Below the pieces are notes generated by a model, which did not search any database, was not told where the DNA came from, and was given only the letters and a program-made list of their open reading frames with translations. Shown in pieces: positions 4,642-4,993 of a stretch of DNA of 64,000 nucleotides. A program made the position numbers and the translations under genes. Each line of letters opens with the position of its first letter. Within the stretch, counting starts at the first letter, position 1. The stretch is from sequence record PP925828.1. The stretch is one strand, 5' to 3'. This stretch comes from Escherichia phage SpoonbillGilly.

Positions 4642-4697
4642 CCAAATTTTTAAAGAGCAGTTACTACGGGGAACATCTTAAAACCTATCGGCTAGCG
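4642..4697. repeat. left arm of inverted repeat (about 28 bp, 2 mismatches) plus 13-bp direct repeat 'tttttaaagagca' flanking ORF 4700-4918
   Basis: reverse complement of 4662-4692 matches 4952-4980 ('gccgatagg.tttaagatgttccc..tagt'); direct copy of tttttaaagagc at 4647-4658 and 4980-4991. Confidence 0.7.
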
Positions 4698-4699
4698 TG

Positions 4700-4918
4700 T
4701 CAAGCGTTTTTTAAACTTTTTTCGATTTGATGTGAGTTATATAAATCAATCATTATATTACGCCACACCATTTCCAGCCCTTGCTGCTTGCCTTTCTTGT
4801 ATTGCTTGAATCTGTATTTTACAGATCGTTGCGCTACTGTCAACAAATTTTTTGTTCTGCTATCTAATGCGCTAGCAGGTTTCGCACTAATCACTAAAGC
4901 GTTTTTTGATTTGATCAT
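4700..4918 (-). CDS. hypothetical basic protein enclosed by inverted/direct repeats
   Basis: 72-aa ORF, lysine-rich; bounded by the repeat arms. Confidence 0.45.
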   Translation of the reverse strand: MIKSKNALVISAKPASALDSRTKNLLTVAQRSVKYRFKQYKKGKQQGLEMVWRNIMIDLYNSHQIEKSLKNA

Positions 4919-4949
4919 TATCGTCGATTCCTTATAATGTATAAGTTTA

Positions 4950-4993
4950 CCGCCGATAGGCTTTAAGATGTTCCCTAGTTTTTAAAGAGCATG
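4950..4993. repeat. right arm of inverted repeat plus direct repeat copy
   Basis: see left arm 4642-4697. Confidence 0.7.

What the first reader, a model, noticed from the sequence alone, without database searches (positions are those of the whole stretch)
4642..4993. Small ORF enclosed by about 28-bp inverted repeats and a 13-bp direct repeat
A 72-aa basic ORF (4700-4918) is flanked by near-perfect inverted repeats (gccgatagg.tttaagatgttccc..tagt) and, just outside them, a direct duplication of 'tttttaaagagca'. This resembles a miniature insertion with target-site duplication, or a large regulatory stem enclosing a gene.
Basis: seen in the sequence. Interest (0 to 1): 0.55.

Follow-up and report, generated by a model that had tools for sequence, protein, structure and literature searches.

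The report
Conserved stem around phage hdi gene
In this T5-like phage, a small gene that blocks host cell division is bracketed by two complementary 28-base sequences that stay complementary across the whole phage family even as their sequence changes, so they most likely form a long RNA stem in the first phage transcript and are not the ends of a mobile element.

Summary
There is a 24-nt inverted repeat with 1 mismatch (28 nt if a 2-nt bulge is allowed) at 4663-4692 and 4952-4979. An exact 13-nt direct repeat lies at 4647-4659 and 4979-4991. Both surround the 72-aa ORF at 4700-4918 (minus strand).

The window is a T5-like phage (Demerecviridae), and the region lies in the pre-early part of its terminal repeat. 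The ORF is a homologue of T5.008/Hdi, a published FtsZ inhibitor. The arms are the orthologue of T5's catalogued but unexplained IRA/IRA' repeats.

The transposon reading fails:
- About 90 related loci have no empty site.
- Neither the window nor IMG/VR holds another copy of the arms outside this pair, and E. coli genomes do not match the unit.
- The "duplication" is a conserved boundary motif, GCTCTTTAA(A/C)AA, found at every such cassette in several genera.

The stem reading holds:
- Arm sequences differ between lineages but remain complementary (97% of cells paired, 18 of 28 pairs changed on both sides).
- One lineage has a compensated 1-nt insertion in both arms.
- The cargo between the arms varies.
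- Some phages carry two or three such cassettes in tandem.

The most likely role is a long-range RNA duplex in the leftward pre-early mRNA, plausibly an RNase III substrate. RNA-level action and cleavage are inferred, not shown.

The parts
4952..4979 (-). 5' arm of the helix in transcript (minus-strand) orientation: ACUAGGGAACAUCUUAAAGCCUAUCGGC.
4663..4692 (-). 3' arm of the helix: GCCGAUAGGUUUUAAGAUGUUCCC(CG)UAGU, with 4667-4668 bulged. It overlaps the spacer, -10 and start region of the next promoter-like site.
4700..4918 (-). Cargo gene: a 72-aa homologue of T5.008/Hdi (FtsZ inhibitor), Pfam DUF7416. The Shine-Dalgarno sequence AAGGA lies at 4933->4929.
4979..4990 (-). Boundary motif GCTCTTTAAAAA directly 5' of the 5' arm. 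It is conserved in all genera examined.
4647..4658 (-). Second copy of the boundary motif GCTCTTTAAAAA, 4 nt 3' of the 3' arm. This is the left copy of the direct repeat. It is present in most lineages, is replaced by GAGAGCG in T5-type phages, and is imperfect in Seabear and saus132.
4675..4703 (-). Sigma-70-like promoter TTGACA-17-TAAGAT, reading towards the T5.007 homologue, A2 and A1. Its -35 overlaps the hdi stop codon, and its spacer and -10 lie in the 3' arm.
   Evidence: same site in T5 at 4718->4690; assignment to T5 P-D/E20 rests on my memory and was not verified
4816..4843 (-). Internal promoter-like site TTGACA-16-TAAAAT inside the hdi coding sequence. The matching T5 site lies within the feature annotated as promoter P-H22.
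5060..5088 (-). Upstream promoter-like site TTGCGC-17-TATTAT with a nearly invariant start region. It is the likely origin of the transcript that contains both arms and hdi.
   Evidence: read from the sequence; scores 8 of 12, below the scan threshold
4993..5013 (-). Small G+C hairpin (GGCGGGG...CCGCC) in the leader, just 5' of the boundary motif. It is absent in KKP_3711 and was not flagged as terminator-like.

Best explanation
The two arms are the orthologue of the IRA/IRA' inverted repeats of phage T5 'Repeat Region 1'. They bracket a small cassette of pre-early genes, which here holds only the hdi homologue (an inhibitor of the host division protein FtsZ).

Proposed mechanism:
1. Host RNA polymerase starts at the conserved promoter-like site about 73 nt upstream of the 5' arm (5088->5060).
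2. It transcribes the leader, the boundary motif, the 5' arm, the ribosome-binding site and hdi, then reads on through the next promoter, whose core is the 3' arm.
3. The two arms pair into a near-perfect 24-28 bp RNA duplex, plus a short outer helix, that closes off the hdi cistron.
4. A duplex of that length is the kind that E. coli RNase III cuts. Cleavage would excise the hdi message with base-paired ends and uncouple it from the downstream T5.007-A2-A1 message.
5. Transcripts that start at the two downstream promoters lack the 5' arm and would escape this processing.

The 13-nt 'direct repeat' is a conserved cassette-boundary motif, not a target-site duplication.

Shown here: orthology to T5, selection for complementarity, variable cargo, absence of mobility, and that hdi is a real gene.
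Inferred: that pairing happens in RNA rather than DNA, that RNase III cuts it, and what that does to expression.
For: Context:
- The window is a T5-like phage and the region is in the pre-early terminal repeat.

Selection for pairing:
- 71 T5-like loci gave 19 distinct arm pairs.
- On 16 of them, 97.3% of cells pair and 18 of 28 pairs changed on both sides. None of 500 shuffles reached the observed values, and slid controls gave 44% paired or less.
- Distant genera have unrelated arm sequences at the same position: Eos, Klebsiella SEL21, Pectobacterium My1 and DU_PP_V, a metagenome contig, and Enterobacter KKP_3711.
- One lineage has a 1-nt insertion in both arms that preserves pairing.
- RNAalifold on whole units recovers the helix and an outer helix. 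The single-sequence MFE contains it, z = -6.5.

Against protein operators or a second promoter:
- Tandem cassettes within one genome each have their own arm sequence.
- Read from the sequence, the inverted copy lacks a -35 element.

Pointing to RNA:
- The arms sit 17-35 nt before the start codon and just after the stop codon of the cargo.
- The 5' arm lies downstream of a conserved promoter-like block, or about +15 from the preceding promoter in DU_PP_V.
- One-sided changes are mostly G.U on the transcript strand: 36 G.U against 6 A.C cells. The C-G to U.G to U-A series is present, while the alternative C.A intermediate is never seen in the T5/Epseptimavirus clade.
- The same operon has three further 19-24 bp intercistronic hairpins without U-tails.

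The gene is real and toxic:
- It is intact in 22 of 22 distinct sequences, pN/pS is 0.14-0.39, and it matches DUF7416.
- It is 68% identical to T5.008, which is Hdi.
Against: - No transcript, cleavage or structure-probing data for this region were found.
- The strand test is not decisive when counted as distinct events: 10 G.U against 5 A.C, p = 0.15. KKP_3711 adds one of each.
- Covariation and the compensated insertion could also arise from gene conversion or template switching between the arms at the DNA level.
- The upstream promoter is only a consensus-like match (8 of 12 in the window).
- Overlap of the 3' arm with the -10 element is not universal (KKP_3711), so that link may be incidental.
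- Rfam has no matching family.
- Ribosomes terminating 5 nt before the 3' arm could hinder duplex formation.
Confidence: 0.55

Rival explanations
1. DNA-level element. The two arms act in double-stranded or transiently single-stranded DNA. They could extrude or synapse, or be held together by a structure-recognising protein, to control the strong pre-early promoters that lie in and between them, for example in the A1-dependent shut-off of pre-early transcription or in handling of the first-step-transfer DNA.
For: - The 3' arm overlaps the core of a promoter-like site in most lineages.
- The neighbourhood is full of other long inverted repeats for which DNA-level roles have been proposed.
- Some arm mismatches are A.C on the transcript strand, so the strand asymmetry is weak.
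Against: - Arms 240-430 bp apart do not readily extrude as cruciforms (established knowledge).
- Arm sequences differ between tandem cassettes of one genome, so one sequence-specific protein cannot explain them.
- The arms track the mRNA landmarks of the cargo (ribosome-binding site, stop codon).
- G.U cells outnumber A.C cells six to one.
Confidence: 0.2
2. Recombination scaffold. The boundary motif and the arms are mainly linkers for swapping small pre-early genes between phages, as PeSL promoter/stem-loop cassettes do in T4-like phages. Complementarity is then kept by gene conversion, without a direct role in expression.
For: - Cargo varies between the same arms: hdi alone, an extra ORF plus hdi, the extra ORF alone (DT571/2), or unrelated ORFs (L093, KKP_3711).
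- The number of cassettes varies from 1 to 3.
- One identical motif sits at every boundary.
- PeSL precedent: PMC4122927.
Against: - Exchange needs direct repeats shared between genomes, which the boundary motif supplies. It does not need an inverted repeat private to each cassette.
- Arms of unrelated sequence stay complementary across subfamilies, which points to selection on pairing itself.
- This reading is compatible with the RNA-stem explanation for the arms and may be true of the motif alongside it.
Confidence: 0.15
3. Miniature inverted-repeat transposable element (or other small insertion) with terminal inverted repeats and a 13-bp target-site duplication.
For: It has the superficial anatomy of direct repeat, inverted repeat, cargo, inverted repeat, direct repeat.
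Against: - No empty site in about 90 loci.
- Only one copy in the window, only this one pair per terminal repeat in IMG/VR, and none in E. coli genomes.
- The direct repeat is the same motif at different cassettes and in different genera, so it is not a duplicated target.
- It does not abut the arms.
- The arms diverge and covary instead of matching a family consensus.
- The cargo is a host-takeover gene, not a transposase.
Confidence: 0.02
4. Invertible promoter segment (inverton). The arms are recombination sites that flip the segment carrying the internal promoter.
For: Inverted repeats flank a roughly 260-bp segment that contains a strong promoter-like site (4843->4816).
Against: - The segment has the same orientation relative to the T5.007 homologue in all loci examined.
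- No invertase gene is annotated in the neighbourhood.
- Inversion would disrupt hdi expression in a strictly lytic phage.
Confidence: 0.02

Closest known systems
IRA/IRA' of bacteriophage T5 'Repeat Region 1' (names from the T5 genome analysis, as used by Davison, bioRxiv 10.1101/866236)
   Same: Same element by position and sequence. The T5 arms at 4669-4707 and 4951-4989 align with the window arms and enclose T5.008.
   Different: In the literature I could read, it is listed only as a conserved repeat in an 'untranslated' region, with no function given. Here the region is shown to contain a real gene, the arms are shown to covary, and the cargo is shown to vary.
RNase III processing stems that flank 16S and 23S rRNA in bacterial rrn operons (established knowledge)
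   Same: A long-range duplex formed by sequences on either side of a gene-sized segment within one primary transcript. It closes the segment off as a loop and is long enough for RNase III.
   Different: The enclosed segment here is a 72-aa protein-coding cistron of a phage. The duplex is near-perfect. Cleavage is untested.
RNase III sites between the early genes of phage T7 (established knowledge)
   Same: An early polycistronic phage message made by host RNA polymerase, with double-stranded elements in the intercistronic spaces. The same operon here also has three local 19-24 bp hairpins with internal loops.
   Different: T7 sites are local hairpins. This element pairs across about 260-430 nt and encloses whole cistrons. 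No processing data exist for T5-like phages in the library searched.
PeSL (promoter-early stem-loop) cassettes of T4-like phages (PMC2839356, PMC4122927)
   Same: A repeated regulatory sequence at the boundaries of small, variable early genes, with gene gain, loss and replacement between those boundaries.
   Different: A PeSL is a local composite terminator/promoter unit repeated many times per genome. Here the shared element is a 12-19 nt motif restricted to this one region, and each cassette also has its own private long-range inverted repeat.
MITEs and small insertion sequences
   Same: The order direct repeat, inverted repeat, cargo, inverted repeat, direct repeat.
   Different: No mobility, no copies elsewhere, and no empty sites. 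The direct repeat is a conserved motif and not a duplicated target.

Membership tests
T5 IRA/IRA' (Repeat Region 1) | [quoted passage not shown] | tested here: met
   The window arms align to T5 4680-4707 and 4951-4978. The T5 repeat is found at 4669-4707 and 4951-4989. Davison gives Repeat Region 1 as 4682-5310.
T5 IRA/IRA' (Repeat Region 1) | [quoted passage not shown] | tested here: met
   Found in every T5-like locus with enough upstream sequence. An analogous pair is present in other genera.
Hdi / T5.008 (DUF7416) | Sequence homology to T5.008 | tested here: met
   68% identity over 60 residues, E = 9e-33. Pfam DUF7416, E = 1.2e-38.
Hdi / T5.008 (DUF7416) | Inhibits FtsZ ring formation and host division | not testable with these tools
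   Shown for T5.008 only (PMC10714956).
RNase III processing site | RNA duplex of about two helical turns (20 bp or more) within a transcript | tested here: met
   24 contiguous pairs, or 28 with a bulge. The arm-only mini-hairpin folds at -44.7 kcal/mol. The helix is in the MFE of the whole unit and in the RNAalifold consensus. That both arms lie in one transcript is inferred from a conserved promoter-like site.
RNase III processing site | rnc-dependent cleavage in vivo or in vitro | not testable with these tools
   No data found.
MITE / insertion sequence | Terminal inverted repeats | tested here: met
MITE / insertion sequence | Target-site duplication that abuts the termini and differs from site to site | tested here: not met
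   There is a 3-nt gap on one side and a 1-nt overlap on the other. The same motif flanks different cassettes in six lineages.
MITE / insertion sequence | Several dispersed copies and presence/absence polymorphism | tested here: not met
   One pair in the window. Only that pair in T5-like genomes of IMG/VR. No match in E. coli genomes. No empty site.
Inverton (invertible promoter) | Both orientations of the segment occur | tested here: not met
   The orientation relative to the T5.007 homologue is the same in all loci.
Inverton (invertible promoter) | Cognate invertase or recombinase | not tested
   None is annotated nearby in six relatives. No dedicated search was made.
PeSL-type regulatory cassette | Repeated promoter/stem-loop unit at the boundaries of variable early ORFs | tested here: inconclusive
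   A boundary motif and variable cargo are present. However, the motif is not itself a promoter plus terminator, and it occurs only at this locus.
Rfam RNA families | Match to a curated covariance model | tested here: not met
   No match up to E = 1 in 4200-6100 on either strand.

The most novel reading that the evidence does not exclude
T5-like phages keep their smallest host-takeover genes in a cassette array at the head of the leftward pre-early operon. Each cassette is delimited by one shared boundary motif, GCTCTTTAA(A/C)AA, and closed by its own private, covarying long-range RNA helix. The motif would allow cassettes to be gained, lost and swapped between phages. The helix would let host RNase III cut each cassette out of the read-through transcript, so that toxic genes such as hdi are expressed and decay independently of the essential A1/A2 genes downstream. 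Such a combined exchange-and-processing design has not been described for phage early genes, as far as I could find.
Probability: 0.2. Interest if true: 0.75.

Novelty: new variant of a known kind. Interest (0 to 1): 0.5.

Why it matters
The pre-early region of T5 is the only DNA in the cell during the first minutes of infection. It carries the genes that kill the host and pull in the rest of the genome, and how their expression is balanced is poorly understood. The IRA/IRA' repeats have been on the T5 map for years without a role.

This analysis shows three things that turn them into a testable regulatory element:
- They are held complementary across two subfamilies.
- They enclose a real and toxic gene (hdi) whose partners in the cassette come and go.
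- Related phages stack several such units.

If the stem is an RNase III site, T5-like phages would join T7 as phages that rely on host processing of early mRNA, but with a long-range design otherwise known from rRNA operons. The cassette boundaries also mark where new small host-takeover genes are likely to be found in newly sequenced T5-like phages.

Tried and rejected
- Rfam scan of 4200-6100 at E up to 1: nothing.
- Search for the unit in 5,426 complete E. coli genomes at blastn sensitivity: nothing.
- Scan of IMG/VR for the arm sequence: only the expected pair in T5-like genomes.
- Literature searches for T5 transcript maps, RNase III processing of T5 RNA, or the published P-D/E20 sequence found nothing usable. 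Davison's 2015 review could not be retrieved.
- Strand-asymmetry test to separate RNA from DNA pairing: suggestive by cells (36 against 6) but not significant by distinct events (10 against 5, p = 0.15).
- Vibrio phages and Klebsiella phage KP2025 carry a T5.007-like gene in a different context, without a comparable inverted repeat. They say nothing either way.
- Divergent-promoter idea for the 5' arm: rejected, because the inverted copy lacks a -35 element at 16-18 bp in the window, T5 and DU_PP_V (read).
- Intrinsic-terminator idea for the long stem: rejected, because no U-run follows the 3' arm.
- Treating the small ORFs that some annotators call across the right arm (T5.009, Seabear_009) as coding: rejected, because they are not conserved as reading frames.

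Full report
WHAT IS THERE

The arms 4669-4692 and 4952-4975 are 24 nt long with one mismatch, 259 nt apart. Reading, they extend to 4663-4692 and 4952-4979 if two bases (4667-4668) bulge out. With up to three mismatches the arm occurs nowhere else in the 64-kb window, and no shuffle gave two matches. TTTTTAAAGAGCA is exact at 4647-4659 and 4979-4991. The copies do not abut the arms symmetrically. The ORF at 4700-4918 on the minus strand encodes a basic 72-aa protein.

WHERE IT IS

The window is a T5-like phage: it is 97.6% identical here to Escherichia phage IrmaTschudi, and 483 phage records match. The window starts near the left genome end, so the feature lies in the terminal repeat among the pre-early genes. 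On the minus strand these are A1 (1584-3248), A2 (3643-4077), a T5.007 homologue (4284-4535), and then the ORF. T5 itself has the same arrangement, with T5.008 at 4715-4918 and inverted repeats at 4669-4707 and 4951-4989. [quoted passage not shown] That paper calls the region untranslated and proposes no function. So the repeat itself is already catalogued.

THE ENCLOSED ORF IS A REAL GENE WITH A KNOWN FUNCTION

- It is intact in 22 of 22 distinct sequences, despite in-frame length differences at both ends.
- Variable sites fall 26/15/41 on codon positions 1/2/3, and pN/pS is 0.14-0.39.
- It matches Pfam DUF7416 (E = 1.2e-38) and phrog_4718.
- It is 68% identical to T5.008.
- T5.008 was named Hdi after it was shown to be toxic, to be bypassed by ftsZ mutations, to dissolve FtsZ rings during infection, and to give T5 a competitive advantage (PMC10714956).

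NOT A MOBILE ELEMENT

- Every T5-like locus I could examine has the unit: GenBank relatives, IMG/VR and metagenome contigs. No empty site was seen.
- In 2.9 million IMG/VR contigs the arm sequence occurs only in contigs of T5-like genome size (about 96-122 kb, many of them the same genomes as). Where both arms match the pattern, they form one plus/minus pair 263-281 bp apart.
- The unit has no match in 5,426 complete E. coli genomes.
- The 'target-site duplication' is the same motif everywhere. On the transcript strand, GCTCTTTAA(A/C)AA lies 0-2 nt 5' of the 5' arm in each unit checked. It lies 2-37 nt 3' of the last 3' arm in every lineage except the T5 type.
- In Enterobacter phage KKP_3711, a different 24-nt inverted repeat around a different 39-aa ORF is flanked by a 19-nt direct repeat built on the same motif.
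- A target-site duplication would differ from site to site, so this is a conserved boundary element.
- In the window its exact copies occur only at these two places.

THE ARMS ARE SELECTED FOR COMPLEMENTARITY

- Within the T5/Epseptimavirus group, 71 loci gave 19 distinct arm pairs.
- A-U is replaced by U-A between the two genera. A C-G pair passes through U.G to U-A. One lineage carries an extra A in one arm and an extra U in the other.
- More distant phages have arms of unrelated sequence at the same position: Eos (32 nt), Klebsiella SEL21 (about 28 nt), Pectobacterium My1 and DU_PP_V (27-29 nt), metagenome contig L093 (22 nt, perfect) and KKP_3711 (24 nt).
- On 16 arm pairs anchored at the inner end, 97.3% of cells pair, 18 of 28 pairs changed on both sides, none of 500 shuffles reached any observed measure, and sliding the partner drops pairing to 44% or less.
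- RNAalifold, run on whole units without guidance, predicts the same helix plus an outer helix.
- The minus-strand RNA of the window folds with the long-range stem in its MFE, z = -6.5.

THE CARGO VARIES WHILE THE ARMS STAY

- The window and T5 carry hdi alone.
- saus132 and one IMG/VR lineage carry an extra 52-aa ORF plus hdi.
- GSW6, Eos and SEL21 carry another extra ORF plus hdi.
- DT571/2 has that extra ORF but no hdi.
- L093 and KKP_3711 carry unrelated ORFs.
- DU_PP_V has three such cassettes in tandem and My1 has two, each with its own arm sequence.

Because arm sequences differ between cassettes of one genome, a pair of operators for one sequence-specific protein is unlikely.

RELATION TO PROMOTERS

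- The 3' arm covers the spacer, -10 and start region of a sigma-70-like site, TTGACA-17-TAAGAT (4703->4675). T5 has the same site at 4718->4690.
- The same is true of all three DU_PP_V cassettes (read from the sequence), but not of KKP_3711, where the arm lies just downstream of the -10.
- From memory, TTGACA...TAAGAT is the published T5 promoter P-D/E20. The T5 record places that feature at 4338-4664, directly downstream, and I could not verify the assignment.
- A second strong promoter-like site lies inside hdi (4843->4816). The matching T5 site lies within the feature annotated P-H22.
- The inverted copy of the promoter core (the 5' arm) has no -35 element, so it is not a divergent promoter.
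- About 73 nt upstream of the 5' arm is a promoter-like block, TTGCGC-17-TATTAT (5088->5060). Its -10 and start region are nearly invariant in the window, T5, DT571/2, Seabear and KKP_3711.
- In DU_PP_V the next 5' arm begins about 15 nt after the predicted start of the preceding promoter.
- hdi can therefore be translated only from a transcript that starts upstream of the 5' arm, and that transcript also contains the 3' arm.

RNA OR DNA?

Arguments for RNA:
- The arms hug the mRNA landmarks: 17-35 nt before the start codon and just after the stop codon.
- They lie inside a predicted transcription unit.
- One-sided changes are mostly G.U on the transcript strand: 36 against 6 A.C cells, and all one-sided polymorphisms within the T5/Epseptimavirus clade apart from DT571/2.

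Limits: counted as distinct events, the excess is 10 against 5 (p = 0.15), and KKP_3711 adds one of each. This test is therefore suggestive only. Gene conversion between the arms could produce covariation at the DNA level.

Context that favours RNA processing: the same operon has three local hairpins of 19-24 bp with internal loops and no U-tails in intercistronic spaces (766-821, 3291-3358, 4558-4611; z = -7.6, -5.0, -4.2). Two of them have a different sequence at the same position in T5. This pattern recalls the RNase III sites of the T7 early region.

MOST LIKELY MECHANISM

The arms form a long-range duplex of 24-28 bp in the read-through pre-early transcript. From established knowledge of E. 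coli RNase III, a near-perfect duplex of two or more turns would be cut. That would excise the hdi cassette with paired ends and separate it from the T5.007-A2-A1 message. Transcripts from the two downstream promoters lack the 5' arm and would stay unprocessed.

I put about 0.85 on selection for pairing, 0.55 on action in RNA, and 0.35 on RNase III specifically.

The boundary motif remains unexplained. It could be a leader element, a nuclease or protein site, or a recombination linker of the PeSL kind (PMC4122927).

VERDICT

- Already known: the repeat (IRA/IRA') and the gene (Hdi).
- Not found in the literature I could search: the family-wide covariation, the variable cargo, the tandem cassettes and the boundary motif.

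I rate it a new variant of a known kind, with moderate interest.

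Noticed in passing
window 5629-5763 and 9322-9456: A 135-nt inverted repeat, 75% complementary, 3.6 kb apart, containing TTATCCACA-type DnaA boxes (for example within 5717-5738). It corresponds to Davison's IRC-spacer-IRD and IRD'-spacer-IRC' pair, which he links to the injection stop signal.
   Followed up: partly
window 5309-5334 and 5800-5825: A 26-nt inverted repeat, 77% complementary, 465 nt apart, upstream of the hdi cassette. It may be the IRB/IRB' pair that is split by the hegG endonuclease gene in T5.
   Followed up: no
window 766-821, 3291-3358 and 4558-4611 (minus strand): Three long local hairpins (19-24 bp, with internal loops and no U-tail) in intercistronic spaces of the leftward pre-early operon. 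T5 has hairpins at the same three positions, two of them with different sequences, which indicates covariation. They are candidate RNase III sites of the T7 kind.
   Followed up: partly
window 4911-4938 (plus strand): A promoter-like site, TTGATC-16-TATAAT, antisense to the hdi ribosome-binding site and pointing through the right arm. A plus-strand terminator-like hairpin lies at 5251-5263. Together they could define a roughly 320-nt antisense RNA.
   Followed up: no
window 6998-7019 with 7530-7551, and 9775-9797 with 10337-10359: Two further long-range inverted repeats (22-23 nt, 82-91% complementary, about 510-540 nt apart) in the rightward pre-early region and beyond. They may be analogous brackets on the other operon.
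   Followed up: no
L077 (Pectobacterium phage DU_PP_V) 192-1108; L075 (My1) 314-1009: Three (DU_PP_V) and two (My1) tandem inverted-repeat cassettes, each with its own arms and separated by the boundary motif. They hold a conserved 65-aa ORF, a 39-aa hydrophobic peptide, and an hdi homologue with a partner ORF.
   Followed up: yes
L133 (Enterobacter phage KKP_3711) 1380-1800: This T5-like phage lacks both the T5.007 homologue and hdi. It has a different cassette at the same site, followed by a good intrinsic terminator (GCCTCTTATAATAATGAGAGGC plus a T-run on the transcript strand) before A2.
   Followed up: partly
L006 (T5, NC_005859) 4338-4718: The record's 'promoter P-D/E 20' feature (4338-4664, minus strand) contains no consensus-like minus-strand promoter. 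The only one between hdi and T5.007 is at 4718->4690, just outside the feature. The annotation coordinates may be off.
   Followed up: partly
window 5154-5213 (minus strand): A 19-aa ORF (MKKLLAKMVVLVLFARPFH) that looks like a truncated version of the 58-aa SPC35_0008-like ORF annotated in DT571/2. A promoter-like site, TTGTCA-16-TATAAA, overlaps its start codon.
   Followed up: no
L031 (DU_PP_V record NC_047887) 1009-1022: The GenBank record annotates an 'attachment site attL' inside the third cassette, a few bases after its 5' arm. This is an odd annotation for a lytic T5-like phage and is probably an artefact of automated annotation.
   Followed up: no
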